Source: Deltaproteobacteria bacterium (GTDB lineage Bacteria > Myxococcota_A > UBA9160 > UBA4427). From it: DNA of 64,000 nucleotides. The translations under genes and the position numbers were made by a program. The notes beneath the pieces were generated by a model that was not told the DNA's origin, did not search any database, and saw nothing but the letters and a program-made list of their open reading frames with translations. Shown piece after piece: positions 12,027 to 62,192 of this stretch (positions are counted from its first letter, which is position 1; every line of letters starts with the position of its first letter). Where the stretch lies: positions 46,197-110,196 of the forward strand of contig PAQX01000019.1 of assembly GCA_002709835.1 (NCBI GenBank). The letters run 5' to 3'.

Positions 12027-12036
12027 TTAATTCCGC

Positions 12037-13231: not shown

Positions 13232-13275
13232 ATGATCGCCGGGAAGCCCAATTGGAGCTGACCCGGAAGGCCATA

Positions 13276-13314: not shown

Positions 13315-13763
13315 GAGGCCCGGCTTAGGCCCGCTGCGGAGCCGAGTCGTCGCTGAGGATCTTACGGAGCGCCTCGACCGCGTCCCGAGCGACGTTAAAA
13401 GTGGATGCGGGCACCGTCGAAGGCATTTTCTCCGCTGTGACTCTTCCCGTTCTCATTGAATGACTGAAATGGAAGAGTTCGGGGCTCCTCACTCAGGCCG
13501 TGCTCTAGGTATTGCCGGAGCCTGGCGTTGCGCTTTTGCTAGGACTCGGGGTTAGAGGTCTTTCGCTCAATCGGTCTTCGCGTCGACGGGGCCTCCCATG
13601 ACCAGAGGGGCCGACGGTCGCATCGGCCTTGAGCACTATTTCTATCCGGTCGATGGCACCTGTCAGGGATCCGAAGCCTATCGGGGCAGCTTCGGCTCTG
13701 GCGCGGTCTGCCCTTCGAGGTTTCCAGCCTCGAGCACCGCCCCTGAGTCGTCGAGGAGAGCAC

Positions 13764-34158: not shown

Positions 34159-34191
34159 GCTCGCTCGCTCGGCTCATCGGCGCGTCGGGCT

Positions 34192-44600: not shown

Positions 44601-47600
44601 GAGGTCGAGCCACGGCTGCGATCGCGTGCCCTCGAGCAGAACGAGAGCGCCGCCCGGTGCGAGAAGCGTCTCGATCTGCCGAAGAGAACCCACGACATCG
44701 GCCGTCGCATGCACGACGTTCGCCGCCAAGATCAGATCGAAGCGATCGTGACCGACCGCCGGGCGCTCGAGGTCGAGGGTCTCGAAGTCCATATTCGCGC
44801 GGTCGGCGAATCGGGCGCGGGCACGGGCGACGAGCTGCGGAGAGAGGTCGGTGAACGTATACGACGAGCCTTCGGCGCGATCGTCGAGAATCGACAGGAC
44901 GTGCTCGGTCGTCCCCCCGGTTCCGCCGCCGAGTTCGAGGACCCGGAGCGGTCGCCCGGCGGCGGCGTCCGATAGATGCGCGATCACCCGGCCGACCTGA
45001 GCGTTCATCGCGCGCGCTCCGACCGACTCGCCGTACAGCGCCTGGAGCCGACCGGCGTCGCCCTTCGGAAAGAGGACCGACAGCGGATCGACTTCTCCGC
45101 GTAGAATCCGCGGCAGCGCTTCGCCGACGCGATCGACGAACTCGGCTTCCGTCTCGAGCGCCGGGTACCGGTTCACCAACGCCGTCCCATCGCTGCCCGC
45201 CGCTCCAGACGAAACGCTGGCGGCCATCTCCTGGAGGCGCGCCACGAATCGCGCCGTCGTTCTCGACGATCCCAACGCCTCCAGGTCGACGTCCTCGAGT
45301 GCACGCTTCGCGTGTCCCGCGGCCACGTGGTCGAGTTCGGCCAGTCCTTTCTGATAGGCCTCGACCTGCGGGTCGCCCAAAGCGCGGTCGAAGTCCGGAG
45401 CGATGGCCTTCGCCAGGACCGAAGCAGCCGGGAACGACGGGGGCGCTTCGATGGCCGTGCCTGACGCTTCGACGTACTCGACGTCGAAGTAGGGGAGCAG
45501 ACGATCCCCCGCGAGCGCGGCCCCGGGGCCCGAGAAACGACCGAGAATCAGACGATCGAGGGTCGCGACGACCTGGCCTTCCAGACCGAGCCAGCGAACA
45601 CACGCGCTGCCATCCTCGGACCGGGAGGCCTTGATCCTGCGCGCACGATCCAGCGCGCTCTCGATCCTCAACCCCCGTAGCGCGATCGGGACGAGCGTCT
45701 CGTCTTCACGCGACGGACCGAGATTCGTCTCGAAGAGCGGCCCCGCCGCCTGGAGTCCGAGGTCGAGCAACTGGACCGGATCCGCGCCGACATCGGCGTG
45801 AAGGCTCGCCAGCACCTCGTCGTCCTGAATCACGATCCCGTCGATCCCCTGGAAGCGGGCTCCGTACGCGAGCCCCCGATCGGCGAGCTTCGAGTAGAAC
45901 TCGGAAGCCGAGACCGAAGGGACCGCGTGCCAATCGGCGTCCGGACCGTCGATCCCTGCTGTGATCGATGACGCGACCCGTTCCAGGCGTCCATGCGCAT
46001 GGAGCACGAATTCATCGTCGGCCCGCGACCAGATTTCGAAGCGATGCCCTCCCTCCTTCTCGGGCTGGAGTTGGGTCTGGATCTCACGGCGGCACGAAGC
46101 CGGAAGCACGAGCGGTGCGCGCAGGGTCAGCTCCGAGACACAGGCGGTCGCGTCGGCGCGGATGTAACCGGCCGCCCGAGCCGCCGCGAGCGCGAGTTCC
46201 ACGAATCCAGTCGCCGGCCACCAGACCTCGCCCTGGACGACGTGATCCGCGACACGGCGATCGCCCCCGTCCACCTCCATCGAGAAGCAGCGAACGAGGT
46301 CGCCCGCGATGGGAACGCGACGCCCGGGCCATGCGCTCGTCGTGAGGGGCCGTGCCAACTCCGCGGAAGCCGGATCGATCCAATAGCGCTCGCGCAGGAA
46401 GGGCTGGTTCGGGAGACGAGATCGCACGGCCCCCGCGGCTCCCGCGACGCCTCCCCAATCGACGTCGACTCCGGCGTCATAGAGGCTGGTCAGCGCCGAA
46501 TCGATCGCCAGCACGCGCGCCGCCCCCGGCCGAGCGGGGCGTAGACTCGGCGCGCCGAAGAAGGGACTGCCGAGCATCGCGCGCGACAGCCCGAGCAGCG
46601 TCGAGCGGGGTCCGATCTCGACGAACCGCGTCGACGGCGCATCCTCCGCGACGCCGAGGGCGCCGAGGGCCTCGCGGAATCGAACGGGCTCCGTCAGCTG
46701 CCGCACCCAATGCGCGGCGCCGAGCGACGCCCCATCGACTCGGCTCCCCGTCACCGTCGAGGCCCAGCGTGTCGCAGCCGGCGCGAACCGGATCGAGGCG
46801 CCGGCCTCCGCGAACGCCCCCGCCATCGGCGCCATCATGCGTCCGTGGAACGCGTGGGAGACGCTCAGCCGCGTCGCGCGAATCGATCTTTCGGACGCGC
46901 GCGCTGCGATCCGTTCGATCGCGTCAGGCGGACCGGCGACGACGGATTCGGCCCCATTGTCAGCCGCAAGGTCGACGGGCTCCCCTTCGAGAAGCGCTTC
47001 GATTTCGCTTGCCGGACGGGAGAGCGCCAACATTGCGCCGCCGGGAAGCGCCTGCATCATTCGTCCGCGCTCCGCGACCCAGAGGAGCGCTTCGTCCCAG
47101 TCGAGCGCGCCCGCGACGCAGGCCGCGGCGAACTCGCCGACGCTATGTCCGAGAACGGCGTCCGGCTCGATGCCCCACGATCGCCAGAGCGCGACCAGCG
47201 CGCGTTGGAGCGAGAAGATCAGGGGCTGCGCGAGCCCCGTCTGCTCCAGCACCGCTTCCGAGACCGCGTCCGTCTCGCCTGAGAACACGGCGAGCAGGTC
47301 GGGACCACCGGCTTCGCGAAGTCGCGACGCGCAGCGCTCGATCGTTTCCCGGAACACGGGCTCACGTTCGAAGAGTTCGTGACCGAGGGCCGGGTAGAGC
47401 CCACCCTGCCCCGAGAACAGAAAGACGACACGGGGGGACGACGAGACCCGCCCGACGTCCGTGGTCGCCAGGGCCTCGAGCTCGTGAACGAGGGTTTGGG
47501 GATCCGCGGCCGCGATCGCGCGGCGATAGGGCCCCTGACTTCGACGTTCGTTGTGGAAGGCGCATCGCTCGGCCAGGTCGCCGCGAAGGCCCTCGCCCCA

Positions 47601-49157
47601 GCGCGCATAGGCGCGCGCGAGCACGTTCAGGTGGGAGGCGCTCTTCGCCGAGAGCGCGAGGACGGCTGGCCGGGTCTCGTTTCCCGCGGCTTCACGCGGA
47701 TCGCCTCGGACCTCGGTCGAAAGCCCTGTCACGAGTCGACTCGCCTCCGAGTCGACGGATTCGACGACGAGATGCGCGTTCGTGCCGCTCATCCCGAAGC
47801 TGCTGATCCCGGCGCGACGCGGTCGATCCGCCTCGGGCCACGCGAGGGTCTCGGTCGGAACGGTGAAGCCGAGTCGGTCGAAGTCGATCCGCGGCGACGG
47901 TCGGTCGCAGTGGAGGTGACTCGGAATCCGAGCGGCCGAGAGCGCGAGGACCAGTTTCAGCAGGCCCGCAGCGCCCGCCGCGGATTCGAGATGGCCGAGA
48001 TTCGTCTTGACCGATCCGACATAACAAGGCGCCTCTCGCGGACCGAGCGCGTCGTGCAGCGCATCGAGCTCGATCGGGTCTCCGAGCGGCGTCCCCGTCC
48101 CGTGCGCCTCGACGTAGTCGAGGTCGCGACCGGACCAGCCAGCGTCCTGGAGCGCGGCGCGAACGACCTCCGTCTGGGCCGATCGGCTGGGCGCCGTTAG
48201 GCCGTTGCTCCGTCCGTCGTGGTTGATCCCCGAGCCACGGATCAACGCGAGCGTGTCCTGAGGGTCCGCCTCGCCCGCTCGCTCGAGAACGAATGCCGCG
48301 CAGCCCTCACCGCGTCCATAGCCGTCGGCGTCTTCCGAGAAGGTCTTGCAGCGCCCGTCGGGCGAGAGCGCCCGCAACTTGCAACACGCGACCGTGGACT
48401 CCGGCGTGAGCACCAGGTTCACGCCGGCGACGAGTGCCCGATCGATCTCGCGCCGACGAAGCGCCTGGAGAGCGAGGTGGATCGCAACGAGTGAGGAGGA
48501 GCAGGTCGTGTCGATCTGGAGCGCCGGTCCGTTCAGGCCGAACGTGTACGCGATCCGACCCGCCGCGATCGCCCGCTGTGAACCCAGCGCGCTGTGGGCG
48601 TCGATCCGCGCCGGATCGCCTGATCGAACGGTGCGATTGGCGTAGTCGTCGAGACTGAGTCCGACGTAGACGCCCGTTCGCGAGCCACGCAACGAGTCGA
48701 TCGGGATTCCTGCGTTCTCGAAGGCTTCGTGGGCACACTCGAGAAGCAGTCTCTGCTGTGGATCGAGGTTCCGCGCCTCGCGCGGTGAGATCCCGAAGAA
48801 CCCCGGATCGAACCCGGCAGGATCTTCGACGAACGCGCCGCGTCGCGTGTACATCCGTCCGGGCACGTCGGGGTCCGGGTCGTACCAGGCTTCTACGTCC
48901 CAGCGCTCGGGCGGAACCTCGCTCGTCGCATCAAAGCCGCGTTCCAGGGCGGACCAGAACGCTTCGGGGGATTCGATTCCACCGGGAAGACGGCAAGCCA
49001 GACCCGTGATCGCGACGGGGGCGCGCTCCGCTGCGTCCCGCGCCTCCAGTTCACCCCGAAGCGCGCGCAGTTCGAGGGCGGCTTCGCGCAGGAGTGCATC
49101 CCGGTCGTCGACCGACCGCGCGCCCGATTCGGGCCCGGCACTCTTGCGCGACGTCAC
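41634..49157 (-). CDS. type I PKS module: KS-AT-DH-cMT-ER-KR-ACP (2507 aa)
   Basis: KS: DTTCSSSLVAIH, EAHGTGTPLGD, NLGHLE. AT: GHSVGEF, HAFHG. DH: HVVQGEVWWP, LLDLGLQ. cMT: LRVLELGGGTGGTT. ER: VLIHNATGGVGQAAVQ. KR: VTGGLGGLGLA, LAD, PKVDG, FSSASG, TNHAAAN. ACP: LGVDSLTALEL. Has a coiled-coil-like N-terminal leader. Confidence 0.95.
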   Translation of the reverse strand: MTSRKSAGPESGARSVDDRDALLREAALELRALRGELEARDAAERAPVAITGLACRLPGGIESPEAFWSALERGFDATSEVPPERWDVEAWYDPDPDVPGRMYTRRGAFVEDPAGFDPGFFGISPREARNLDPQQRLLLECAHEAFENAGIPIDSLRGSRTGVYVGLSLDDYANRTVRSGDPARIDAHSALGSQRAIAAGRIAYTFGLNGPALQIDTTCSSSLVAIHLALQALRRREIDRALVAGVNLVLTPESTVACCKLRALSPDGRCKTFSEDADGYGRGEGCAAFVLERAGEADPQDTLALIRGSGINHDGRSNGLTAPSRSAQTEVVRAALQDAGWSGRDLDYVEAHGTGTPLGDPIELDALHDALGPREAPCYVGSVKTNLGHLESAAGAAGLLKLVLALSAARIPSHLHCDRPSPRIDFDRLGFTVPTETLAWPEADRPRRAGISSFGMSGTNAHLVVESVDSEASRLVTGLSTEVRGDPREAAGNETRPAVLALSAKSASHLNVLARAYARWGEGLRGDLAERCAFHNERRSQGPYRRAIAAADPQTLVHELEALATTDVGRVSSSPRVVFLFSGQGGLYPALGHELFEREPVFRETIERCASRLREAGGPDLLAVFSGETDAVSEAVLEQTGLAQPLIFSLQRALVALWRSWGIEPDAVLGHSVGEFAAACVAGALDWDEALLWVAERGRMMQALPGGAMLALSRPASEIEALLEGEPVDLAADNGAESVVAGPPDAIERIAARASERSIRATRLSVSHAFHGRMMAPMAGAFAEAGASIRFAPAATRWASTVTGSRVDGASLGAAHWVRQLTEPVRFREALGALGVAEDAPSTRFVEIGPRSTLLGLSRAMLGSPFFGAPSLRPARPGAARVLAIDSALTSLYDAGVDVDWGGVAGAAGAVRSRLPNQPFLRERYWIDPASAELARPLTTSAWPGRRVPIAGDLVRCFSMEVDGGDRRVADHVVQGEVWWPATGFVELALAAARAAGYIRADATACVSELTLRAPLVLPASCRREIQTQLQPEKEGGHRFEIWSRADDEFVLHAHGRLERVASSITAGIDGPDADWHAVPSVSASEFYSKLADRGLAYGARFQGIDGIVIQDDEVLASLHADVGADPVQLLDLGLQAAGPLFETNLGPSREDETLVPIALRGLRIESALDRARRIKASRSEDGSACVRWLGLEGQVVATLDRLILGRFSGPGAALAGDRLLPYFDVEYVEASGTAIEAPPSFPAASVLAKAIAPDFDRALGDPQVEAYQKGLAELDHVAAGHAKRALEDVDLEALGSSRTTARFVARLQEMAASVSSGAAGSDGTALVNRYPALETEAEFVDRVGEALPRILRGEVDPLSVLFPKGDAGRLQALYGESVGARAMNAQVGRVIAHLSDAAAGRPLRVLELGGGTGGTTEHVLSILDDRAEGSSYTFTDLSPQLVARARARFADRANMDFETLDLERPAVGHDRFDLILAANVVHATADVVGSLRQIETLLAPGGALVLLEGTRSQPWLDLVFGVTEGWWRFDDASRRAHAPLLSGADWDSVLAEAGFVDSAPMLPEEAAAPAQSVLVAFKSRVARPIRLVGEGDPLDRLEAKLREAGHPVSRSSLSIEDEDAHLVVVPPSGASLDASIREPVVSLFEETTRAARSTHLELSVVVIDPSKEDRLAASAIRGFLQALALERPTWRTRLIVADSSSEAVAELRSTNDEVEVNYAGGRRRVARLARVGSVHGAEAPRRLVHRAVGTLDQLAMEAGECVPSLGSDEVRVDVRAAGLNFRDVLIALDLYPEPGEMGCECVGVVAEIGSDVEGLSVGDPVMALGAGCFASEVVVRAGLAVRLPRGLDFVEAATLPVAFATAVAGLLDRAALGPGETVLIHNATGGVGQAAVQIARSRGARVFGSASASKRAALEALGVELALDSRDPGFAEAVLEATGGRGVDVVLSALPGEMRQRSIDVTVAGGRFVEIGKGQGPSPEEIAASRPDLSHFVLDLAALSSEAPSEVADVLKRVVSGVDQHDWRPLPTSRIEAAAATRAFRTMQRGQHVGKLVLDFSRDTGDAAAIHSVPFSLRDDAAYLVTGGLGGLGLAVARWLVDGGALHLVLLARNARPEGRQVEDLRALEALGASVTLVQADVTDEAGLAEALAPWTTQQSGVPLAGVIHAAGTLADGAIGRLEREDFERVLAPKVDGTVHLHNVTRDLPLEAFVLFSSASGLLGAPGQTNHAAANRFLDGFAEYRRALGLPALSIAWGPWSEIGAALAYTEEGVEDESEAVLGRREALGALPGIGMLAPKEALDHLGHVWNARRGTIGIIEADLDQVSRIPAVASLPYFEQVLSDAEADAAQSGATPVGVEAARLLETLAALPPGERRERLDEHVIEHLARVLDLTPDAIDPRLGFFDLGVDSLTALELGNRIESDLGIALPETLLFDHPTPVALLDLLEARLFPDSAPTPDLAVRTPEGSTSGAGDPRGESTTAPDEDAIDRKLDELEALLALGNEDPA

Positions 49158-51873: not shown

Positions 51874-54800
51874 ATGAGCCAATCCGAAGACATCGACCGC
51901 CTGCTCGCTCAACTCTTCCGTCTCGGCGTCCGCCTCGAGGCCAAGGGCGACAGCCTGAGGGCTTTTGGGCCCAAAAGTGCGCTGGACGGAAAACTCCGCC
52001 AGGAGATCCAGGATCGGAAGGCCGAGATCCTCGCGACCCTGGCCGCGCGAAAGCATAGTGCGGGTTCGGCCGCGTCGGCTTCGATCGGCACCAGTGACCG
52101 ACCGACTAACCCTCCTCTCTCCTTCGCCCAGCAACGACTCTGGTTTCTCGAGCAGCTCCAACCCGGGACTTCGGCGTACAACCTTCCCCTTGGTTTCACG
52201 ATCCAGGGCCAGCTCGAGCCGAAAGCCCTGATCGCCACGCTCGACGAACTCATCGCTCGCCACGAGATCCTGCGGACTCGCTACGTCCTCGACGAGGGCG
52301 AAGCCATTCAAGTCATCGATGAGGAAGTCCAACTCACCGTCCCCGTCCTCGATCTCCGGGACCAGGTCGACCGCGAACGCGCCGTCATCGCTGAGATCCG
52401 CTCCGCCGCGGCGCGCCCCTTCGATCTCGCGGCCGAACATCCGGTACGCGCCGCGATCCACCGAGTCGGCGACGCCCATTGGGTTGTGCTCTTCACCCTC
52501 CATCACATAGCCGCCGACGGCTGGTCCCTTGAGATCCTGCTGCGAGAGATCTCGACGATCTATCCTGCGAAACTCCTCGGGACGGAAGCCTCGCTGCCTG
52601 ATCTACCTGTCCAATACGCGGACTTCGCGGTTTGGCAGCGATCCGACGCGCACGCGCAGACACTCGACCAACAGCTCCGCTACTGGCGCAAACAGCTCGA
52701 CGGTCACATCCCCCGACTCCAACTTCCGACCGACCACACGCGTCCGCGCAGCCAGAACTTCAACGGGGACTTCGTAGAGTTCGAGATCGACCGCCACGTA
52801 GCCGACCGACTCCGGCAGATTGGAAAGACGCGCGGCGCAACGCTGTACATGACGTTGCTCGCCGCACTGAACGTCCAACTCCTCCGGTATACCGGCCAGC
52901 GCGACATCCTGGTCGGGTCTCCGATCGCGAATCGCCAACATGCCGAGGTCGAATCCCTCGTCGGGCTCTTCGTGAATACGCTGGTCATCCGTTCGCGCCT
53001 CGACCCCAAGGATCGTTTCGAAACCCTGGTCGACCAGGTCCGGGAGACGACCCTCGCGGCCTACGACCACCAGGACCTTCCTTTCGAGCTGCTCGTCGAG
53101 GCCCTCGCGCCCGATCGCGACCCTGGCATACACCCACTCTTCCAGGTGAAGTTCCGCCTTGAGAACGCGCCTGCCCAACGCCTCGAGATGCCAGGCCTGA
53201 CCCTCGAGCGCCTTCGCCAGGAAACCGTGTCCGCCAAGCTCGACCTGAGCGTCGACGTCTATGAGACGGATGGAGGCCTGGCCGGCGCCTTCGAATACGA
53301 TCGCGACCTCTTCGATCGCACAACGATCGAACGTATGAGCGCACAGTATGCAGCGCTCCTCGAAGTCATCGCGAGCCAACCAACAGCGGCGATCGGCTCG
53401 CTGTCCGCGCTGACCGAAGCAGAGATCACCCGACAGCAGCGCGAGTGGAACGACTCAACGAAGTCCTATCGCGACGACGCCTGCTACCACCACCTCTTCG
53501 AAGACCAGGCCGCCGCCCATCCCGACACGCTCGCGGTCCGATTCGACGACGGCTGCACGCATACGGATCTCACCTACGACGCGTTGAACGCACGCGCGAA
53601 TCGGCTCGCGCGCCGATTGATCGACGAAGGCGTCGGCCCCGAGTGCGTGGTCGCGATCTGCCTGGACCGATCGCCGGAGATGGTCGTCGCCATGCTGGGC
53701 GTCCTGAAGGCCGGAGGCGCCTACCTTCCCCTCGATGCGGAGTACCCCGCCGAGCGGCTCGAGTACATGATCGAGGACGCCGCCGTCCAGCTACTGGTCG
53801 GCGGCGGTCAAGCGCCAAAACTCTCAGGCGCGAAGATGATCGACCTCGATCGTTTCGACTGGAGCGGCGATGACCCGGGCAATCCGGATGTCGCGTTGTC
53901 CCCCGACAATCTGGCCTACCTGATTTACACGTCGGGTTCGACCGGACGACCGAAGGGGGTCACGATCGCCCACCGTGGCCTCGTGAACCTGACCGAAGAC
54001 AAGATCAGGAAGTGCGACGTCCGCCACGGCGACTGCGTTCTCCAGTTCTTCTCGTTCAGCTTCGACGGGTCCGTCCCGGAGTTCGTGATGACCCTCGCGA
54101 CCGGCGCGCACTTACTGATGGCGCCGGCGGAAACGATGCTGCCCGGGCCGGAACTCGCGGACCTCCTCCGACGCAATGACGTCACGCACATCACGCTCAC
54201 CCCGTCGGCACTCACCGCGCTCCCGTCTGGGGACTACCCCGCGCTCCGGATGGCACTCGTCGGCGGCGAAGCACCTTCTCCCGAGCTGATCCGGGAGTGG
54301 AGTCAGGGTCGGAACTTCATCAACGCCTATGGGCCGACCGAGACCACGGTCAACGCGAGCATGGTCTATTGCGGGAACGAGCACCCCGTCGAACCGACAA
54401 TCCTGCCTAGCGCGAACAAGCAGCTTTACGTCCTCGACCCCGATCTCCAGATCACACCGGTCGGCGTCGTCGGCGAGCTGCACATCGGCGGGGTCGGTCT
54501 CGCGCGCGGCTACCACAACCAACCTGCGCTGACCGCAGAACGCTTCATCCCGAACCCATTCGCGACCGGCGAGACGGGCGAGCATGGCATCGGCGCACCG
54601 CCGCTCCTGTACAAGAGCGGCGACCTCGCCGCCTATCTCCATGACGGTCGGATCAAGATCCTGGGACGCGTCGACCACCAGACCAAGCTGCGCGGCTTTC
54701 GGATCGAACTCGGCGAGATCGAGCGCAATCTCGAGGCCCATCCGGCCGTCCGCGCCGGCGTCGTGGCGATCCGGGAGTTCGGCGACGATCGGCGTTTGGT

Positions 54801-55284
54801 CGCCTATGCCGTACCAAAGGACGCCCCGGTCGACCCGGCCGAAATCCGACAGTTCCTCGCATCGAAGCTGCCCCACTTCATGCTCCCGACGACGTGCGTA
54901 TGGATCCCGGAGCTGCCGCGAACGAGCAATGACAAGCTCGACAGCGACGCGCTCCCCATGCCGAACTTCACGAAGGCCGAGCGCCGAGAGCCGCGGACGG
55001 AGACCGAGGCTCTCCTCGTCGAGACTTTCGCATCCGTCCTCGCGCTCGATCGTGTCGGAATCGACGACGATTTCTTCGACCTCGGCGGGCACTCGCTCCT
55101 CGTCACCCGGCTCGTAGCGCTCCTCAAGAATCGATTCGACGTCGAGGTCACGGTCATGGATCTCTTCGACGCGCCGAGCGCCTCGTCCCTTGCGCAGCGG
55201 ATCGAACAAAAGCAGGTGATCGGTCGGCTCGTCGAATCCGACGTCGAAGGCGCAGACGACGACCGAGAGGAGATGGCGCTGTGA
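51874..55284 (+). CDS. NRPS, one module with an N-terminal docking domain: DD-C(LCL)-A-T (1136 aa)
   Basis: Residues 4-58 form a TubC_N-type docking domain (DIDRLLAQLFRLGVRLEAKGDSLRAFGPKSALDGKLRQEIQDRKAEILATL). C domain: LSFAQQRLWFLEQL, HHIAADGWS. A domain: LAYLIYTSGSTGRPKGV, YKSGDL, hand-read code DGPTLGAVNK. T domain: FFDLGGHSLLVTRL. No E/TE. Acidic C-terminal tail ...VESDVEGADDDREEMAL. Confidence 0.95.
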   Translation: MSQSEDIDRLLAQLFRLGVRLEAKGDSLRAFGPKSALDGKLRQEIQDRKAEILATLAARKHSAGSAASASIGTSDRPTNPPLSFAQQRLWFLEQLQPGTSAYNLPLGFTIQGQLEPKALIATLDELIARHEILRTRYVLDEGEAIQVIDEEVQLTVPVLDLRDQVDRERAVIAEIRSAAARPFDLAAEHPVRAAIHRVGDAHWVVLFTLHHIAADGWSLEILLREISTIYPAKLLGTEASLPDLPVQYADFAVWQRSDAHAQTLDQQLRYWRKQLDGHIPRLQLPTDHTRPRSQNFNGDFVEFEIDRHVADRLRQIGKTRGATLYMTLLAALNVQLLRYTGQRDILVGSPIANRQHAEVESLVGLFVNTLVIRSRLDPKDRFETLVDQVRETTLAAYDHQDLPFELLVEALAPDRDPGIHPLFQVKFRLENAPAQRLEMPGLTLERLRQETVSAKLDLSVDVYETDGGLAGAFEYDRDLFDRTTIERMSAQYAALLEVIASQPTAAIGSLSALTEAEITRQQREWNDSTKSYRDDACYHHLFEDQAAAHPDTLAVRFDDGCTHTDLTYDALNARANRLARRLIDEGVGPECVVAICLDRSPEMVVAMLGVLKAGGAYLPLDAEYPAERLEYMIEDAAVQLLVGGGQAPKLSGAKMIDLDRFDWSGDDPGNPDVALSPDNLAYLIYTSGSTGRPKGVTIAHRGLVNLTEDKIRKCDVRHGDCVLQFFSFSFDGSVPEFVMTLATGAHLLMAPAETMLPGPELADLLRRNDVTHITLTPSALTALPSGDYPALRMALVGGEAPSPELIREWSQGRNFINAYGPTETTVNASMVYCGNEHPVEPTILPSANKQLYVLDPDLQITPVGVVGELHIGGVGLARGYHNQPALTAERFIPNPFATGETGEHGIGAPPLLYKSGDLAAYLHDGRIKILGRVDHQTKLRGFRIELGEIERNLEAHPAVRAGVVAIREFGDDRRLVAYAVPKDAPVDPAEIRQFLASKLPHFMLPTTCVWIPELPRTSNDKLDSDALPMPNFTKAERREPRTETEALLVETFASVLALDRVGIDDDFFDLGGHSLLVTRLVALLKNRFDVEVTVMDLFDAPSASSLAQRIEQKQVIGRLVESDVEGADDDREEMAL
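51883..52047 (+). other. TubC_N-type (beta-hairpin) docking domain, copy 1 (N-terminus of the NRPS)
   Basis: Pattern L..L...GV.L...G..L....PK.AL...L...L...KAEIL..L, as in the N-terminal docking domains of myxobacterial-type NRPS subunits. Assigned from memory of the family consensus. Confidence 0.7.
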
Positions 55285-58200
55285 ATGTGCGCTCCTCCGG
55301 ACGTTTGAACCCGACGACGACCTTCGAGCCGCTGTGGAATCAGTGGTACGCGTGGAGCTATCTGATCCCGCCCGCCTCCGCGTCGCGGTATCTGACCGAA
55401 TCCCATCTCGCGACGCTGCAGTCCTTCGCGGATGCGCCCGAAATACACGTCGAGGCGCTCCGCGATCCGGCGATGCGCGGCGGTCCCTTCATCGAATACG
55501 GCGTCGATCGCGCGGACGAGATCCGGGCGTTGTTCACCCGCACGACCGCGAAAACCACAGCCTTGGCGAACCTGAGTCTCGCAATCCGTAATCTCGAGGC
55601 GAAGCTGTCGGCCTATCCGCGCGGCATGTCCCTCGAACCGCTCTACGACGAGATCCCCGAACCCCTTCGCGGCTTCGTCGAACTCGTCTATGACGCCCGG
55701 GACAGCGCTGCCATCCGCTTCATCGAGCCGATGCTCTACCGGAGCGAGTTCTACGACCCCTCGCTCCAGACGATCGCGCTGCAGCGAATGGACGATCCCG
55801 ACACCCGCGGCTTCGTGCTGAGCACGCCGCGCCTCGAGGCCGACCTCGACTGCCATCTGCCGATCCCCTTCGACGACGCGCGCATCGATGCCCTCGCGCG
55901 TACCCGTCGCGAAGCGCGGGTGATCGGCGAACTCGCCGAAGAACTCGGGATCGGCGCCGCTGAACTTGATCGTTTCGCAGCACTCTTCACCGAGACGAAG
56001 GCGCCCGAAGCCGGCGTCCGTGCCGAAGGCGTCCGCGTCCGATACCTGGGTCATGCTTGCGTTCTCCTCGAGACCCGAGACGTCACGATCCTCGTCGACC
56101 CGCTGATTCCCTACGCAAGCGCAACCGGAATCGATCGAATCTCGTACGACGATCTGCCGGAGCGGCTAGATTACGTTCTGATCACTCACAACCATCAGGA
56201 CCACGTGATGCTGGAGACCCTTCTCCAGCTGCGCCACCGGATCGGCACGGTCGTCGTCCCGCGTTCCCAGAAGGGCTCGATCCTCGACCCGTCGATGCGT
56301 CTATGCCTGAAGCGGATCGGCTTCCGGAGCGTTCGGGAGATAGACGAGCTGGACGCAATCGACCTCCCCGATGGTGAGATCGTTTCGCTTCCCGTACTCG
56401 GGGAACACGGAGACCTGAACATCGGGGCGAAGAGCGCCTACTGGATCCGCGTCCTAGGACGATCGATCGTGTGCGCCGCCGACTCGAACAGCATCGACGA
56501 CCGACTCTACGCCCACTTCCGCCAGCTACTCGGCCGACCGGATCTCCTCTTCATCGGCATGGAGTGCGACGGCGCCCCCTTTACCTGGTCCTATGGGCCG
56601 ATCCTGCCCACGCCGGTGCCCCAGCGGATCGCGAAGTCCCGCCGCCTCGACGGCTCGGACGCCGAGCGCGCTCTGCGGATCGTCGACGCGCTCGATCCGA
56701 GCGCCGTCTACGTTTACGCGATGGGCGGCGAACCGTGGCTGACCTTCATCACATCGATCGCTTATACCGAAACGTCGCGCCCGATCGTCGCGTCGAACCG
56801 ATTCGTCGAAGCCTGCCACGAGCGCGGCCTCGACAGCGCGCGCCTCCTCGGGCGACGGGACTTCCACTTGACGCCCGGCAACGGGACCACCGCCCCCTCC
56901 GCGGCCCCGCTCCCGGCTCGGCTCGACCCGAACCTCGAGGCGTCGCCGCAGCCGGTCGCCGCGTCTAAGCGCCCCTCGGAAACCGCCAGTGCAGTCTCGG
57001 CCCGTCGCGATGGCAAAGGTCAGAAGCTAACGGCGCTCCTCGCGGAGCTCGAGTCTCTGGACGTCCGCTTACACGTCGACGGCGAGCAGCTGAAGGTGAA
57101 CTCGCCGAAGGGCGCGCTGACCGACACGCTCAAAGCCGCGCTGAAGGAGCACAAGGCGGCGATCGTGGCGCTCATCTCGGGCGGCCGCGATAGCGAGGCG
57201 AAGGCCGGACCGGAAGATGAGCGCCCCGCGCACGAGGGTGCCGAAGACGTTCGTCTTGCCGCGGACCTCGTCGTCGCGAGTTCGCGCACCCCGCGCCACG
57301 ACACCACGCCGAGCGAGATCCTCCTGACGGGCGCCACGGGTTTCCTCGGCGCCTATCTCATGGACGCGCTGCTCGAACGGACCGACGCCCGCATCACCTG
57401 CCTCGTCCGATCGGACTCCACCGAAGCCGGACTCGAGCGGATCGCGGAGGCCTTCTCGCTCTACGCCCTGGACTCCGGGCGCCTTGAAGCGCGGATCGAC
57501 GTGCTCCCGAGCGACCTCACGAAGCCCCGCCTTGGGCTCGACGAAGCGACCTTCGATCGACTCGCGTGCGAAATCGACGTGATCCATCACGCCGGCGCCA
57601 TGGTGCACCACGCTTCACCCTACTCGCAGCTCCGCGACGCGAACGTCGACGGCACCCGTCGGATCCTCGAACTCGCGGCGGCGGGCGGCGGCCTCCCGGT
57701 CCACTACGTCTCGACCCTGAGCGTCCTCCCGCCCCGTCCATTCCCCGGGAAGACCCGCTTCCACGAGCACGATCCGATCGACGCGTTTCCGGTACCGGCC
57801 GGCGGCTACAACCTGAGCAAGTGGGTCGCGGAGCATCTCGTCGTCGACGCCCGCCGCGCAGGGATTCCGGTCTCGGTCTACCGGCCCGGTCCGGTTTCCG
57901 GCGACCAGCGCACGGGCGCCTTCAATCGCGACGACTTCCTCTACCGCTTGATGTCGGGATACCTGCAGTCGGGCCTCGCGCCGGACGGCGAGACCTCCCT
58001 CGACATGCTGCCTGTCGACTTCGTTGCCGAGACGATCGTCGCGCTGGCGGACGATCCGGATTCCCTTGGACAGACCTTCCACCTTCTCCACCCGAATCCC
58101 GCCTCCTCGGAGATCCTCTTCGAGGTCTGCCGTGAAGCGGGTCATCCGATCAAACGCGTGCCCTATCAGCGCTGGTTCGAACACCTGACCGAAATCGCGA

Positions 58201-58451
58201 AGCACGACGAGAACCATCCGCTCTATCCGCTCGTAGGGCTCTTCTCGTCGCGCTCCGGACGAAGCGATTCGGCCCCAGCGCCGGAAGGGCCGCCTGAGCT
58301 GCCATTCGAGACGGCGAACCTGCACGCGGGCCTTCTCCGCGTCGGTCTCGAGATCCCGCCCCTCGATCACGCGCTCTTCCATACCTACGTGGGCGCGATG
58401 CTCCCCGCCGAGGGCGAAGACGTGCGGCGCGCGATCGGAGGCGAGCGATGA
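55281..58451 (+). CDS. three-part fusion: CmlA-type non-heme diiron beta-hydroxylase (MBL fold), internal docking domain, thioester reductase (R) domain (1056 aa)
   Basis: One uninterrupted ORF. The GTG start overlaps the upstream stop (GTGA). The MBL core has THNHQDH (nt 56184-56204; H303, H305, D307, H308), LGEHGD (E375) and CAADSN (D401). Then a Pro/Ala/Ser linker and a docking domain at aa 581-634. The R domain runs from aa 680: LLTGATGFLGAYL, RITCLVR, HHAGAMV, YNLSK. No T, C or A domain. Confidence 0.85.
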   Translation: MNVRSSGRLNPTTTFEPLWNQWYAWSYLIPPASASRYLTESHLATLQSFADAPEIHVEALRDPAMRGGPFIEYGVDRADEIRALFTRTTAKTTALANLSLAIRNLEAKLSAYPRGMSLEPLYDEIPEPLRGFVELVYDARDSAAIRFIEPMLYRSEFYDPSLQTIALQRMDDPDTRGFVLSTPRLEADLDCHLPIPFDDARIDALARTRREARVIGELAEELGIGAAELDRFAALFTETKAPEAGVRAEGVRVRYLGHACVLLETRDVTILVDPLIPYASATGIDRISYDDLPERLDYVLITHNHQDHVMLETLLQLRHRIGTVVVPRSQKGSILDPSMRLCLKRIGFRSVREIDELDAIDLPDGEIVSLPVLGEHGDLNIGAKSAYWIRVLGRSIVCAADSNSIDDRLYAHFRQLLGRPDLLFIGMECDGAPFTWSYGPILPTPVPQRIAKSRRLDGSDAERALRIVDALDPSAVYVYAMGGEPWLTFITSIAYTETSRPIVASNRFVEACHERGLDSARLLGRRDFHLTPGNGTTAPSAAPLPARLDPNLEASPQPVAASKRPSETASAVSARRDGKGQKLTALLAELESLDVRLHVDGEQLKVNSPKGALTDTLKAALKEHKAAIVALISGGRDSEAKAGPEDERPAHEGAEDVRLAADLVVASSRTPRHDTTPSEILLTGATGFLGAYLMDALLERTDARITCLVRSDSTEAGLERIAEAFSLYALDSGRLEARIDVLPSDLTKPRLGLDEATFDRLACEIDVIHHAGAMVHHASPYSQLRDANVDGTRRILELAAAGGGLPVHYVSTLSVLPPRPFPGKTRFHEHDPIDAFPVPAGGYNLSKWVAEHLVVDARRAGIPVSVYRPGPVSGDQRTGAFNRDDFLYRLMSGYLQSGLAPDGETSLDMLPVDFVAETIVALADDPDSLGQTFHLLHPNPASSEILFEVCREAGHPIKRVPYQRWFEHLTEIAKHDENHPLYPLVGLFSSRSGRSDSAPAPEGPPELPFETANLHAGLLRVGLEIPPLDHALFHTYVGAMLPAEGEDVRRAIGGER
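57021..57183 (+). other. TubC_N-type docking domain, copy 2 (internal to the fusion protein)
   Basis: QKLTALLAELESLDVRLHVDGEQLKVNSPKGALTDTLKAALKEHKAAIVALISG. Hand alignment with copy 1 gives 19 identical positions over 51 ungapped residues, including VRL, PK.AL and KA.I. Confidence 0.7.
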
Positions 58452-59302
58452 GCGCGCGCTATGACCGATACGACGGTTGGGCCTCGCTCTACAACGCCAC
58501 GATGGGGCCCGAGTACGGGCACGCGCAGTTCGAGATCGTCGAGAGACTGATCCTTCCGTCGATTCCCGCGCGCGCGACGATCCTCGACCTCTGCTGTGGG
58601 ACCGGCCAGCTTCTTACCCCACTCGCGGAAGCAGGCTACGCGGTCACCGGTCTCGACGGCTCGACCGAGATGCTCCGCTTCGCCGCGGAGAACGCCCCCG
58701 ACGCGAAGCTCGTCGCGGAAGACGCTCGGGAGTTCCGTAATCCCGAAGCGTTCGACGCAGTGGTGTCGACGAGCGCCTCGCTCAATCACGTGGGCTCTCT
58801 CGATGATCTCCAGTGCGTGTTCGGAAACGTCTTCGCCTCCCTCCGTCCGGGCGGCGGCTTCCTCTTCGACCTGAATCACCCCGCCCAGCTCGAACGCTGG
58901 TGGAACGGTCGCCCCACCGAAGGCGAGATCGACCGACACCTGGCCTGGATGATCACCCCCGAGTACGACGCCGCCCGGAGTGAGGGCCGCTTCACGGTCA
59001 CCGTCTACAGCGCACCCGAAGCCTCAATCCGCCCCTGGAAGACCCCGCTCTACCGACTCCTATCGCTTCCACGCTTCATCGGGCTCCGCCTGTGCGCAAT
59101 CGGCCGCTTCGATCGACTCGAACCTGAATGGGCGCGAGATTCCATGGCTTTCCCCGTTTTCGGCCACTCCATCGACGGCGTCCGCGAACGACTGGAGCGT
59201 GTCGGGTTCGATGATATTTGCGTCGAGACCGCCGACGGCATGCCTCTCGACGAAAACCACTCCGCGCATTTCGTCTGTCGGAAGCCTTCGGAGGACGCGT
59301 AG
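58448..59302 (+). CDS. class I SAM-dependent methyltransferase (284 aa)
   Basis: Motif I ILDLCCGTGQL, post-I VTGLDGS, motif II FDAVVS, and LRPGGGFLF. Joined to the upstream gene by an ATGA overlap. Confidence 0.85.
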   Translation: MSARYDRYDGWASLYNATMGPEYGHAQFEIVERLILPSIPARATILDLCCGTGQLLTPLAEAGYAVTGLDGSTEMLRFAAENAPDAKLVAEDAREFRNPEAFDAVVSTSASLNHVGSLDDLQCVFGNVFASLRPGGGFLFDLNHPAQLERWWNGRPTEGEIDRHLAWMITPEYDAARSEGRFTVTVYSAPEASIRPWKTPLYRLLSLPRFIGLRLCAIGRFDRLEPEWARDSMAFPVFGHSIDGVRERLERVGFDDICVETADGMPLDENHSAHFVCRKPSEDA

Positions 59303-60831: not shown

Positions 60832-61056
60832 ATGAGTGAAACGAATACGACGGACAGCGCGATCTTTTCGGTCGTCGTCAGCGAAGAAGGTCGTTACTCC
60901 ATCTGGCCAGAATACAAGGAGATCCCCTGGGGTTGGCGGGCAGATGGCAAGCGCGGATCGAAGGCTGAATGCCTCGACTACATCGAAACCGTGTGGACGG
61001 ATATGCGCCCCTTGAGCCTTCGCCGTGCGATGGACAAAGACACCTCGAGCAACTAG
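60832..61056 (+). CDS. MbtH-like protein (74 aa)
   Basis: Signature [13 protein letters not shown] ... [14 protein letters not shown] (three conserved Trp and the PxGW motif). Confidence 0.9.
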
Positions 61057-61077: not shown

Positions 61078-61563
61078 ATGGAACCCATGCCCGAAGAGCG
61101 CGATAAGACGACCGAGGAACCGCAGGTTCTCGATCTAGTCGCACCGTGGAATCTTCCGCTCGCGCTCGACCTCGGCGATCGTGAGCGCGAGACGATCGCG
61201 GCTACGCTCACGGAGCTCAACGCGGAGCTCGCGTCCGAGCAGCCTCGCTCGCAAGCCCTCGAGAAGCTGATCGAGCGCTTCCCAACGCCAACTGTCCAGA
61301 GGCACTCGATCACGGACACCAAGTCGAACCTCACGTCCGAAGACGTCGAGTCGTACGACCGCTACTTCGAGGTTCGGCACGTCGATACAGAATCGCCCGC
61401 GCGCTCGATCGTGCGCAGTCTGCTCATGACCTGCCATTCTTTCCTTTCACTGCGTGAGACCGGCTTCTCGTTCGATTCCGAACAAGTCGCCCTGCAGACG
61501 ACGGGTTTCCGCGAGCATGCGCGTCTGATCGCGCGGATCTGCGGAATCGCACTGGAGCGCTGA
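61078..61563 (+). CDS. hypothetical protein (161 aa), acidic N-terminal half
   Basis: The ORF has ordinary composition and sits in operon context. Its stop overlaps the next start (TGATG). No family recognised. Confidence 0.5.
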   Translation: MEPMPEERDKTTEEPQVLDLVAPWNLPLALDLGDRERETIAATLTELNAELASEQPRSQALEKLIERFPTPTVQRHSITDTKSNLTSEDVESYDRYFEVRHVDTESPARSIVRSLLMTCHSFLSLRETGFSFDSEQVALQTTGFREHARLIARICGIALER

Positions 61564-62192
61564 TGTCGACTTTCGCTCCGAACATGTCGACACCGTCGGC
61601 AATTGAGCTCTGGAAGCGTTTCCACTGGGCGTTCTTCGTGAACACCCAGGGGCTCCTCATGGCGCTCTCTCGATTCGAGCGTTTCGTGGAAACGGAAGAC
61701 TTCGAGGGTGCTCGGCGAGAGATGGCCGCTGCCGCGACGCTCATGCGGGCCTCGGGCGCGTCGATGCAGTTGGCAGGCAGCTTCACCCGGCAGGAATACA
61801 AGGACCAAGTCCGACCATCGATGATGCCCCCGGAGCTGGAGGTCGCGGGATTCAGCGGCCTCATGTCCTGGGATCACGCGAGCTTGATCGAACTCTGGCG
61901 ACGACTCAGCCCGATCTTCGCTTCGCTGCCTGACGTACTCAAGCACGAGTATGAGGACTTCGTAGCCGCCTACGGCACGCTTGCTGACTCGCATAGTGCA
62001 GTCTGCTCACGCTTCGTCGCGAAGGGCGAGGGCTCGATCCGCTACGAGGGCGATGAAGCCATCGAGTCCTTGTCCCGATTCCGCAAGGGACGGGAGGCGA
62101 TGATCGCTCCGCAGGGACGCGTGAGTGGCTGCCCCGCCCACGGCGCACCGGCGACGCACCGCGACGAAGCGGACGACGACATCGAGAGCTGA
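61563..62192 (+). CDS. hypothetical helical protein (209 aa), possible distant tryptophan-2,3-dioxygenase-superfamily (heme) fold
   Basis: Translationally coupled ORF. By-eye resemblance to TDO landmarks: ELWKRF (the ELW helix), YKDQVRP...AGFSGLMSWDHASLIE (compare F.xFR..L.P.SGFQS.QfR.lE), and SHSAVCSRFVAKGEGS (compare the proximal-His region H...V.R.iG.K.GTGGSS). The functional call has low confidence. Confidence 0.5.
   Translation: MSTFAPNMSTPSAIELWKRFHWAFFVNTQGLLMALSRFERFVETEDFEGARREMAAAATLMRASGASMQLAGSFTRQEYKDQVRPSMMPPELEVAGFSGLMSWDHASLIELWRRLSPIFASLPDVLKHEYEDFVAAYGTLADSHSAVCSRFVAKGEGSIRYEGDEAIESLSRFRKGREAMIAPQGRVSGCPAHGAPATHRDEADDDIES

What the first reader, a model, noticed from the sequence alone, without database searches (positions are those of the whole stretch)
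55281..58451. Carrier-less three-part enzyme: CmlA-type diiron beta-hydroxylase, internal docking domain, thioester reductase
A single 1056-codon ORF joins three parts. (i) An N-terminal region of about 535 aa has the two-part architecture of carrier-protein-dependent non-heme diiron beta-hydroxylases. It comprises a helical N-domain and an MBL fold with H303-x-H305-x-D307-H308, E375 (LGEHGD) and D401 (CAADSN). That is the His/His/Asp/His plus bridging-carboxylate plus Asp ligand spacing expected for this family. (ii) A Pro/Ala/Ser linker leads to a TubC_N-type docking domain. (iii) An NRPS-type terminal reductase follows (LLTGATGFLGAYL ... YNLSK). R domains normally follow a T domain in cis, and diiron hydroxylases are normally discrete proteins. 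Here both are fused around a docking domain and neither has its own carrier. The GTGA start/stop overlap with the upstream C-A-T NRPS suggests stoichiometric co-production. Hypothesis: one docking event tethers a combined tailoring-and-release unit to the T domain of that NRPS, so the same phosphopantetheinyl arm visits the hydroxylase and then the reductase in trans. I am not aware of a described example of this fusion, but I cannot search.
Basis: partly seen in the sequence, partly recalled or inferred. Interest (0 to 1): 0.85.

Follow-up and report, generated by a model that had tools for sequence, protein, structure and literature searches.

The report
Hydroxylase–dock–reductase enzyme of siderophore pathway
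The three-part gene is real and conserved in about 130 bacterial lineages, and it is a variant release enzyme of a known iron-chelator (Dmaq siderophore) pathway that carries an extra hydroxylase, so these clusters probably make a hydroxylated chelator that has not yet been described.

Summary
The ORF at 55281-58451 is confirmed. It holds a CmlA-type diiron hydroxylase (all seven metal ligands present), a flexible linker, a beta-hairpin (TubC_N) docking domain, a second linker, and a thioester reductase. There is no carrier domain.

It is not an assembly artefact. About 130 protein clusters (at 90% identity) share the architecture, mostly in cyanobacteria, and the catalytic residues are invariant across 50 diverged members.

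The gene sits in the cassette that builds Dmaq, the catechol-quinolinium chelator of anachelin and fabrubactin: a DOPA-type C-A-T module, reductase, methyltransferase, aminotransferase, MbtH and the FbnL/FbnM peroxidase pair.

- In Agrobacterium and Acaryochloris the same cassette has the reductase in cis (C-A-T-R) and no hydroxylase.
- Other loci have a stand-alone dock-R.
- Here the module is split, and the hydroxylase is fused in front of the dock.

The upstream C-A-T ends in a conserved REE-x-x-x tail. This tail occurs only in split loci, which supports docking in trans.

Dock-reductases and the CmlA-plus-reductase logic are both already known. The triple fusion and its predicted product (a beta-hydroxylated Dmaq) appear undescribed in the literature I could read. 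My verdict is a new variant of a known kind, of moderate interest.

The parts
51874..55284 (+). NRPS subunit: N-terminal beta-hairpin dock, C, A (code DGPTLGAVN, the DOPA type shared with the Agrobacterium FbnH-like module), T, then a C-terminal tail
   Evidence: Pfam; A-domain code comparison
55264..55281 (+). C-terminal short linear motif REEMAL of the C-A-T protein, the predicted ligand of the internal docking domain
   Evidence: Conserved as REE[MIF][AE][LIF] in 7 of 8 split-type loci (TEEIEL in the eighth). Absent from cis-type loci. Occurs once per locus in a six-frame scan
55281..58451 (+). The whole fusion ORF (1056 aa): hydroxylase, linker, dock, linker, reductase
55302..55994 (+). 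CmlA_N helical domain (aa 8-238)
   Evidence: Pfam PF18456, E = 3e-73; aligned to 8a90 and 4jo0
56028..56870 (+). MBL-fold diiron catalytic domain (aa ~250-530). Ligands H303, H305, D307, H308, E375, D401, E428
   Evidence: all seven invariant in 50 family members
56871..57011 (+). Pro/Ala/Ser-rich flexible linker (aa 531-577)
   Evidence: AF2 pLDDT below 50 over residues 552-577
57012..57176 (+). [quoted passage not shown]
   Evidence: Pfam E = 5e-15; sequence matches to the EpoB, AerJ, TubC and Bamb_5915 docking domains; AF2 secondary structure
57177..57314 (+). Second flexible linker (aa 633-678)
   Evidence: AF2 pLDDT below 50 over residues 635-650
57315..58400 (+). Thioester reductase domain (aa 679-1040). 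G684-x-x-G687-x-x-G690; Y843-x-x-x-K847
   Evidence: TIGR01746, 326.9 bits; MxaA R domain 4u7w, E = 5e-77; motifs invariant
58448..59302 (+). SAM methyltransferase (FbnI position in the fabrubactin-type gene order), predicted N,N-dimethylase
   Evidence: Pfam; conserved neighbour in 8 of 8 loci; fused to the reductase in P0026
59302..60774 (+). Class-III aminotransferase (FbnJ position), predicted to convert the released aldehyde to an amine
   Evidence: Pfam; synteny
60832..61056 (+). MbtH-like protein, assigned by synteny only
   Evidence: The orthologous 74-aa gene in L004 carries PF03621. No NCBIfam hit here
61078..62192 (+). FbnL/FbnM-like two-gene haem peroxidase pair (61078-61563 and 61563-62192), Tyr to DOPA
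   Evidence: tblastn gives 47-49% identity to the Agrobacterium/Allorhizobium FbnM-position gene (annotated 'siderophore biosynthesis protein' in the Agrobacterium records). SfmD_perox Pfam on the orthologues. Function as cited in PMC12971057
28451..29524 (-). FbnE-type luciferase-like monooxygenase of the same cluster
   Evidence: TIGR04020 MupA/Atu3671 family, 491.9 bits
49161..51368 (-). FAAL-ACP loading protein (FbnG position), divergent from the C-A-T operon
   Evidence: Pfam; PMC11837247
13629..16415 (.). Siderophore-interacting ferric reductase (13629-14507, +) and MATE exporter (14544-16415, -) at the cluster edge
   Evidence: Pfam

Best explanation
The ORF encodes a trans-acting tailoring-and-release subunit of a Dmaq-type (anachelin/fabrubactin-like) lipopeptide siderophore assembly line.

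Proposed sequence of events:
1. The FbnL/FbnM-like peroxidase makes L-DOPA.
2. The upstream C-A-T module loads L-DOPA and condenses it with the growing chain.
3. The C-terminal REEMAL tail of that module binds the internal beta-hairpin docking domain of the fusion. Two roughly 45-residue flexible linkers then hold the diiron hydroxylase and the reductase next to the same phosphopantetheine arm.
4. The hydroxylase beta-hydroxylates the tethered DOPA residue.
5. The reductase releases the chain as an aldehyde.
6. The adjacent aminotransferase converts the aldehyde to an amine, and the methyltransferase dimethylates it.
7. Oxidative ring closure gives a Dmaq-like quinolinium catechol. In this variant it is predicted to carry a hydroxyl at C4, the former beta-carbon.

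In evolutionary terms this is the FbnH-type C-A-T-R module split after T, with a CmlA-type gene fused in front of the dock-R piece.

What is shown: the architecture, its conservation, intact catalytic residues, the cassette context and the tail motif. What is inferred: the physical docking, the substrate, the order of reactions and the product.
For: - **Domains and residues:**. All seven diiron ligands, the NAD(P)H motif and the Tyr/Lys pair are invariant in 50 members that share 43-75% identity with the window protein.
- **Cassette:** the same set [dock-C-A-T][fusion][MT][AmT][MbtH][perL][perM] is found in 8 of 8 loci examined, from Cyanobacteria, Burkholderiales, Pseudomonadales and Myxococcota.
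- **Siderophore context:** transport genes lie alongside, and an Atu3671/FbnE-family monooxygenase is present.
- **Cis-type comparison:** Agrobacterium, Allorhizobium and Acaryochloris cassettes have dock-C-A-T-R in cis and no CmlA.
- **Intermediate form:** stand-alone dock-R occurs in otherwise identical cassettes.
- **Substrate:** the A-domain code D[A/G]PTLGAVN is identical in split and cis types.
- **Docking tail:** the REE-x-x-x tail is found only at the C-terminus of the C-A-T in split loci. The last five tail residues and two salt bridges are known to mediate this kind of docking (PMC9113145).
- **Gene fusion evidence:** P0026 adds the methyltransferase to the same polypeptide.
- **Pathway function:** Dmaq pathway and FbnL/M function as cited in PMC12971057; anachelin cassette in PMC4247773.
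Against: - Dmaq as named in the papers read (1,1-dimethyl-3-amino-1,2,3,4-tetrahydro-7,8-dihydroxyquinoline) has no hydroxyl at C4. The predicted product is therefore hypothetical.
- No product from a fusion-bearing cluster is documented in the literature I could read.
- The primary fabrubactin paper (Vinnik 2021) was not available. The Anabaena cylindrica PCC 7122 gene itself could not be inspected.
- AF2 pTM is 0.57, which gives no reliable inter-domain geometry.
- Nothing here shows that the hydroxylase acts on the DOPA-loaded T domain rather than on another carrier.
- The R-domain tree does not separate the architectures cleanly, so the direction and number of split and fusion events are unresolved.
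Confidence: 0.65

Rival explanations
1. The beta-hydroxylation is cryptic. The hydroxyl is installed on the tethered DOPA and lost later, for example by dehydration to a quinone methide or an enamide. That loss would either supply the two-electron oxidation needed for ring closure or give an unsaturated chromophore. The final chelator would then be ordinary Dmaq or a dehydro form.
For: The only Dmaq structures described lack a C4 hydroxyl. Hydroxylase-free cassettes still make Dmaq, so ring closure needs some oxidant (PMC6562677 describes a proposed tyrosinase/ortho-quinone route). One fusion-bearing Nostoc locus also encodes a tyrosinase.
Against: From general catechol chemistry, a quinone methide is attacked at the benzylic carbon, not on the ring. 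That would not give the quinolinium ring. Cis-type clusters manage without the hydroxylase. No dehydratase is conserved in the cassette.
Confidence: 0.15
2. The hydroxylase domain serves a different carrier-bound residue of the assembly line, or performs a different oxidation. On this view its fusion to the dock-R merely ensures co-expression or co-localisation.
For: CmlA-type enzymes hydroxylate various tethered amino acids, and they occur fused to other NRPS domains such as C or A-T. Beta-hydroxy amino acids are common iron ligands in siderophores (PMC12971057).
Against: The fusion places the hydroxylase on the same dock as the reductase. The reductase must act on the DOPA-loaded T domain, because it occupies the position of the cis R domain of FbnH-type modules. 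The only REE-type tail in each locus is on that C-A-T. The fusion co-occurs with the Dmaq cassette in clusters whose other modules differ.
Confidence: 0.12
3. The hydroxylase part is catalytically dead and is kept as a dimerisation or scaffolding module for the trans-acting reductase.
For: Stand-alone dock-R proteins work in otherwise identical cassettes without it.
Against: All seven metal ligands and many surrounding residues are invariant across 50 diverged members. The domain is 40-47% identical to stand-alone CmlA-like proteins and matches solved diiron monooxygenases at E = 4e-132.
Confidence: 0.04
4. The long ORF is a sequencing or assembly artefact that joins two or three genes.
For: None was found. 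The linkers are low-complexity regions, where frame errors could hide.
Against: About 130 independent database clusters from different phyla and projects have the same uninterrupted architecture. An identical protein is on record from another assembly (P0001). A 74%-identical orthologue in a Myxococcota MAG has the same gene boundaries.
Confidence: 0.01

Closest known systems
FbnH-type terminal module of the fabrubactin/anachelin Dmaq cassette (dock-C-A-T-R, followed by MT, AmT, MbtH, FbnL, FbnM)
   Same: Same cassette and gene order. Same A-domain code (DAPTLGAVN against DGPTLGAVN). The R domains are 42-45% identical to the window's R domain. The same FbnE-family monooxygenase and FAAL are nearby.
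   Different: There the reductase follows T in cis, there is no hydroxylase, and the protein has no REE tail. Here the module is split and a CmlA-type domain plus a dock precede R.
Chloramphenicol CmlA with CmlP (A-T-R) (established knowledge: Makris et al. 2010 and 2013)
   Same: A diiron MBL-fold beta-hydroxylase acts on a T-tethered aromatic amino acid, which an NRPS reductase domain then releases reductively. The hydroxylase matches CmlA at E = 4e-117 with all ligands aligned.
   Different: CmlA is a discrete protein and CmlP carries its own T and R. Here the hydroxylase and R are on one chain, and the T domain is on another protein reached through a dock.
Beta-hairpin docking (SLiM-betaHD) recruitment of trans-acting domains: Bamb_5915 C domain, AerJ halogenase, and the betaHD-thioester reductases catalogued by Kosol et al. 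2019
   Same: The dock has the same fold. A C-terminal tail follows a carrier domain and contains the conserved Arg and Glu. One tail can serve more than one partner (PMC9113145).
   Different: In the described cases the dock is at the N-terminus of its protein. Here it is internal, with a 530-aa enzyme in front of it, so a single dock brings two catalytic domains.
Myxochelin MxcG (C-A-T-R) with the MxcL aminotransferase (established knowledge)
   Same: Reductive release to an aldehyde followed by transamination to an amine. The window R domain matches the MxcG model over its R region (E = 1.1e-76).
   Different: In MxcG the R domain is in cis, there is no hydroxylase or N-methylation, and the siderophore type is different.
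Other CmlA-domain fusions seen only as database sequences (CmlA-C, for example P0188; CmlA-A-T, for example P0158)
   Same: A CmlA_N plus MBL hydroxylase sits at the N-terminus of a larger NRPS-related protein.
   Different: The C-terminal partners differ. No dock or reductase was detected in them. None is characterised, as far as I could find.

Membership tests
CmlA-type non-haem diiron beta-hydroxylase | CmlA_N helical domain followed by an MBL fold | tested here: met
   PF18456, E = 3e-73; Lactamase_B_2/_3. E = 4e-132 to 8a90 and 4e-117 to CmlA 4jo0 over residues 9-528
CmlA-type non-haem diiron beta-hydroxylase | Full diiron ligand set (CmlA H305, H307, D309, H310, E377, D403, E430; numbering from established knowledge) | tested here: met
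   H303, H305, D307, H308, E375, D401 and E428 align with them and are invariant in 50 members
CmlA-type non-haem diiron beta-hydroxylase | O2-dependent beta-hydroxylation of a carrier-tethered amino acid | not testable with these tools
   Needs enzyme assays
Beta-hairpin (TubC_N) docking domain | [quoted passage not shown] | tested here: met
   PF18563, E = 5e-15; matches to EpoB, AerJ, TubC and Bamb_5915; AF2 elements H578-592, E596-600, E603-607, H615-623, H625-632
Beta-hairpin (TubC_N) docking domain | Located at the N-terminus of its subunit | tested here: not met
   It lies at residues 578-632, behind a 530-aa hydroxylase
Beta-hairpin (TubC_N) docking domain | Partner short linear motif at the C-terminus of the upstream carrier-containing subunit | tested here: met
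   REEMAL at the end of the C-A-T. Conserved, and exclusive to split loci
Beta-hairpin (TubC_N) docking domain | Physical binding of tail to dock | not testable with these tools
   Needs ITC or NMR, or a multimer model
NRPS/PKS thioester reductase (TIGR01746) | Model score above the curated cut-off | tested here: met
   326.9 bits against 213.35; MxaA R domain E = 5e-77
NRPS/PKS thioester reductase (TIGR01746) | GxxGxxG nucleotide motif and the Tyr-x3-Lys catalytic pair | tested here: met
   G684, G687, G690, Y843 and K847 are invariant
NRPS/PKS thioester reductase (TIGR01746) | Follows a carrier domain in the same polypeptide | tested here: not met
   No PP-binding hit in the ORF. The T domain is on the upstream protein
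Dmaq chelator cassette (anachelin/fabrubactin) | FbnL/FbnM peroxidase pair (the antiSMASH marker for Dmaq) | tested here: met
   61078-62192. The FbnM-like ORF (61563-62192) is 47-49% identical to the Agrobacterium/Allorhizobium gene. The FbnL-like ORF was matched only to loci of this cassette (26-68%). SfmD_perox on the orthologues. Marker rule from PMC12971057
Dmaq chelator cassette (anachelin/fabrubactin) | Terminal module with the same substrate code, plus reductase, aminotransferase and methyltransferase | tested here: met
Dmaq chelator cassette (anachelin/fabrubactin) | Reductase in cis in the terminal module and no hydroxylase, as in the Agrobacterium-type cluster | tested here: not met
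   Split module with a fused CmlA domain
Dmaq chelator cassette (anachelin/fabrubactin) | Product contains Dmaq | not testable with these tools
   Needs isolation and MS/NMR

The most novel reading that the evidence does not exclude
The fusion defines a widespread, uncharacterised branch of Dmaq siderophores. It is found mainly in cyanobacteria, and also in Burkholderiales, Pseudomonadales and Myxococcota. Its chelating chromophore would be built from beta-hydroxy-DOPA, giving a C4-hydroxy- or dehydro-quinolinium catechol. It would also be the first case in which one C-terminal tail and one internal docking domain multiplex two different catalytic domains, a tailoring oxygenase and a chain-releasing reductase, onto a single carrier domain. 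A charge-swapped tail/dock code (REE with P-K-G against RKE with P-E-E) would keep this contact orthogonal to the upstream module-to-module dock.
Probability: 0.4. Interest if true: 0.6.

Novelty: new variant of a known kind. Interest (0 to 1): 0.45.

Why it matters
If the model holds, more than a hundred sequenced cyanobacteria and several proteobacterial and myxobacterial lineages make a modified Dmaq chelator that nobody has isolated. Mass-spectrometric searches for Dmaq fragments would currently miss it.

The enzyme is also a compact, natural example of bringing a tailoring step and the release step to one carrier domain through a single short peptide tag. That is directly useful for engineering split NRPS systems.

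Three natural architectures now exist for the same step: cis R, trans dock-R, and trans hydroxylase-dock-R. Together they offer a ready-made comparison for asking what a docking domain costs or buys in assembly-line kinetics.

Tried and rejected
- **Frameshift or assembly artefact:** rejected because of conservation.
- **Tetrahydroisoquinoline (saframycin-like) pathway:** considered because of the SfmD-like peroxidase. Rejected once the FbnL/M and Dmaq literature and the Agrobacterium synteny were found.
- **Primary fabrubactin paper (PMC7882191 / DOI):** not held.
- **Searches for FbnH-K or Atu locus tags:** returned only unrelated papers.
- **Genome-contig scan with the aminotransferase alignment:** It did not return Agrobacterium fabrum or Anabaena cylindrica.
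- **Third homologue search, with the Acaryochloris C-A-T-R:** swamped by multi-module NRPSs, and did not resolve A. cylindrica.
- **P0137:** looked like a 65%-identical stand-alone dock-R but is a contig-truncated fragment.
- **Quick NJ tree of R domains:** did not separate the architectures, so I make no claim about the order of evolutionary events.
- **The reductase as an electron donor for the diiron site:** considered and dismissed. It is a flavin-free SDR that sits exactly where the cis release domain sits.
- **All ten literature searches:** found no paper describing this fusion.
Full report
**Observation.** The ORF at 55281..58451 (+) is uninterrupted and encodes 1056 aa. Its GTG start overlaps the TGA of the upstream ORF (GTGA), and a GAGGAG ribosome-binding site lies 8 nt upstream. 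Pfam finds CmlA_N (8-238, 3e-73), MBL-fold models (252-426), TubC_N (585-631, 5e-15) and NAD_binding_4 (682-919, 8e-63), with no carrier domain. NCBIfam places residues 680-1038 in the thioester-reductase family, above the curated cut-off (326.9 against 213 bits). The upstream ORF is TubC_N-C-A-T and the downstream ORF is a SAM methyltransferase.

**Catalytic competence.** Residues 9-528 align end to end with two solved diiron monooxygenases, 8a90 (E = 4e-132) and CmlA 4jo0 (E = 4e-117). H303, H305, D307, H308, E375, D401 and E428 fall on the CmlA ligand positions (ligand numbering from established knowledge of CmlA). I aligned 50 family members that share 43-75% identity with the window protein. 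In that alignment these seven residues, the reductase G-x-x-G-x-x-G motif and the Y843/K847 pair are all invariant, and several dock residues are conserved (L590, P609 and K625 invariant; K610 and G611 nearly so). An AlphaFold2 model has mean pLDDT 85.6. It shows three folded units separated by two low-confidence linkers (552-577 and 635-650). The dock has the alpha-beta-beta-alpha-alpha pattern of beta-hairpin docking domains. Its sequence matches the docks of EpoB, AerJ, TubC and Bamb_5915.

**Not an artefact, and not rare.** The best 120 hits of a search of 5.8 billion proteins all carry the same domain set at about 1000-1130 aa. Most are cyanobacterial (Nostoc, Nodularia, Gloeocapsa, Limnoraphis, Crocosphaera, Acaryochloris, Leptolyngbya). 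Others come from Aquincola, Burkholderiales and Pseudomonadales MAGs, and a Myxococcota MAG at 74% identity. An identical protein is on record from another assembly (P0001). One member also has the methyltransferase fused at its C-terminus (P0026). At 50% clustering the full-length family collapses to about three representatives, so it is one tight clade.

**Context: a Dmaq siderophore cassette.** All eight loci with the fusion that I read have the same neighbours in the same order: TubC_N-C-A-T, the fusion, a methyltransferase, a class-III aminotransferase, usually MbtH, and a pair of small SfmD-like peroxidase genes. This holds across four phyla or orders. TonB-dependent receptors, ExbBD, ABC binding proteins or ferric reductases lie alongside. 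In the window itself a siderophore-interacting reductase and a MATE exporter flank the cluster.

The literature identifies this cassette. Dmaq is the catechol-quinolinium chelator of anachelin and fabrubactin. Its synthesis starts with FbnL/FbnM, a two-protein haem peroxidase that makes L-DOPA from tyrosine. FbnE is a flavin monooxygenase and FbnG is a FAAL (PMC12971057; PMC11837247). The proposed anachelin cluster lists reductase, methyltransferase, aminotransferase and a tyrosine-modifying gene for Dmaq (PMC4247773). The window has all of these, including an Atu3671/FbnE-family monooxygenase (491.9 bits) and a FAAL-ACP. antiSMASH already labels the Aquincola cluster that carries P0049 as fabrubactin-like (PMC11092185).

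**What differs from the characterised type.** Agrobacterium tumefaciens pAt15955 and Allorhizobium ampelinum pAtS4e carry the fabrubactin-type cluster. Their gene order matches the published letters at three anchor points: E is the monooxygenase, G is the FAAL, and L/M are the peroxidases. In that cluster the H position is a single 1506-1522-aa protein, TubC_N-C-A-T-R. It has no CmlA domain, and no CmlA_N match exists in any Agrobacterium plasmid record. The salicylate-type (anachelin-like) cluster of Acaryochloris marina pREB1 is the same, with a 1573-aa C-A-T-R.

A third form also exists. Stand-alone dock-R proteins of 487-490 aa occur in otherwise identical cassettes. The nine specificity residues of the A domain are D[A/G]PTLGAVN in all split and cis versions, and differ in an unrelated C-A-T-R. 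All of these modules therefore very probably load the same amino acid, L-DOPA according to the cited work. The R domains of the three architectures are 38-48% identical to the window's R domain (apart from its 76%-identical Myxococcota orthologue) and intermix in a rough tree. They appear orthologous, but I cannot order the events.

**Docking.** The C-A-T proteins that precede the fusion end in DDDREEMAL, EEREEIEI, AGREEFEL, EDREEIEF, DEREEFEI and EEREEIEF. One has TEEIEL. A six-frame scan of 13 loci finds this REE-type C-terminus exactly once in seven of the eight split-type loci (the eighth carries the TEEIEL variant), always at that position. It never occurs in cis-type loci or, within range, in stand-alone dock-R loci. 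The review of docking domains states three relevant points: the last five residues of such a tail form a strand against the dock with two salt bridges; docks of this kind were found N-terminal to thioester reductases and halogenases; and one tail can recruit more than one partner (PMC9113145).

In the cyanobacterial loci, the NRPS that feeds the N-terminal dock of the C-A-T ends differently, in GR[KR]EI[KES]L. That N-terminal dock has P-E-E/D where the internal dock has P-K-G. This looks like a charge-swapped specificity code. That reading is inference only.

**Mechanism.** The best-supported reading is a trans-acting tailoring-and-release subunit. The tail of the DOPA module binds the internal dock. 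The hydroxylase and then the reductase act on the same phosphopantetheine arm. The aldehyde is transaminated and N,N-dimethylated, and oxidative ring closure gives a Dmaq-type catechol.

The logic of a CmlA-type hydroxylase followed by reductive release is that of chloramphenicol (CmlA with CmlP; established knowledge). Reductase followed by aminotransferase is the logic of myxochelin B. The new element is the extra oxygen. Dmaq as named in the papers has no substituent at C4, and the cassettes of the characterised type lack the hydroxylase. I therefore predict that fusion-bearing clusters make a C4-hydroxylated (or subsequently dehydrated) Dmaq. A cryptic hydroxylation is the main rival.

**Limits.**
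- I could not read the primary fabrubactin paper.
- I could not inspect the Anabaena cylindrica gene.
- I could not model the complex.
- Ten literature searches found no description of the fusion. Absence from an open-access library is weak evidence that none exists.

**Verdict.** The claim of uniqueness is overstated: trans dock-reductases are known, other CmlA fusions exist, and there are about 130 family members. This is a new variant of a known system, and it carries a concrete, testable prediction about an unisolated siderophore chromophore.

Noticed in passing
L001 9874-9894, L005 14911-14931, L090 9981-10001 compared with L001 ~6480-6502, L005 ~11540-11560, L090 ~6545-6567: There are two distinct C-terminal tail classes in the same pathway. 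REE[IF]E[IF] lies on the C-A-T that precedes the fusion. GR[KR]EI[KES]L lies on the NRPS that precedes the C-A-T. The matching docks differ at one spot, P-K-G (internal) against P-E-E/D (N-terminal). This suggests a charge-swap code that keeps the two contacts orthogonal.
   Followed up: partly
L095 10001-11464, L096 10001-11464, L094 67-1539: Stand-alone dock-reductase proteins (487-490 aa) occur in complete Dmaq cassettes, with no hydroxylase and no adjacent DOPA module. The partner C-A-T must be encoded elsewhere.
   Followed up: partly
database proteins P0188 (1024 aa) and P0158 (1131 aa), also P0159, P0207, P0247: There are other N-terminal CmlA-type hydroxylase fusions. One is hydroxylase-condensation domain, another is hydroxylase-A-T, and several have 200-300-aa C-terminal extensions with no Pfam match. 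I found none described.
   Followed up: partly
database protein P0026 (1342 aa): One family member extends the fusion to four parts by adding the downstream methyltransferase to the same polypeptide.
   Followed up: no
window 29536-49157 (-): Downstream of the FAAL-ACP there are two nearly identical, fully reducing, C-methylating PKS modules (KS-AT-DH-MT-ER-KR-ACP, 2507 and 2481 aa), then KS-AT-KR-ACP. The Agrobacterium cluster has only the last of these. The lipid part of this siderophore should therefore be longer and branched.
   Followed up: no
window 51874-52040: The N-terminal dock of the window's own C-A-T has G-P-K-S at the position where cyanobacterial N-terminal docks have P-E-E. None of the NRPS/PKS proteins encoded in the window ends in a matching tail. 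Its upstream partner must lie beyond the window end, past 64000.
   Followed up: partly
window 61078-62192: The two peroxidase ORFs get no hit in the Pfam or NCBIfam copies searched here. Precomputed Pfam hits nevertheless label their orthologues SfmD_perox (PF27188), and NCBI calls the Agrobacterium ones 'siderophore biosynthesis protein'.
   Followed up: partly
L009 5604-12222 (Calothrix sp. NIES-4101), also L008, L010, L011, L018: A different cyanobacterial siderophore-type cluster uses C-A-T-R in cis followed by an aminotransferase and a methyltransferase. Its A-domain code is different (DLTKIGHVG; Asp-like from my memory of published codes, not checked here) and it has no peroxidases. The reduce-transaminate-methylate ending is therefore not restricted to Dmaq.
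   Followed up: no
literature: PMC9248904 (chitinopeptin clusters of Chitinophaga): That paper reports adjacent, separate genes for a thioester-reductase-domain protein and a CmlA-like MBL protein, in clusters whose products are not reductively released. This association of the two enzyme types is unexplained.
   Followed up: no
window 12001-14000: GC content drops to 0.59 against about 0.68 elsewhere. The dip lies just outside the siderophore-interacting reductase gene, at the cluster edge.
   Followed up: no
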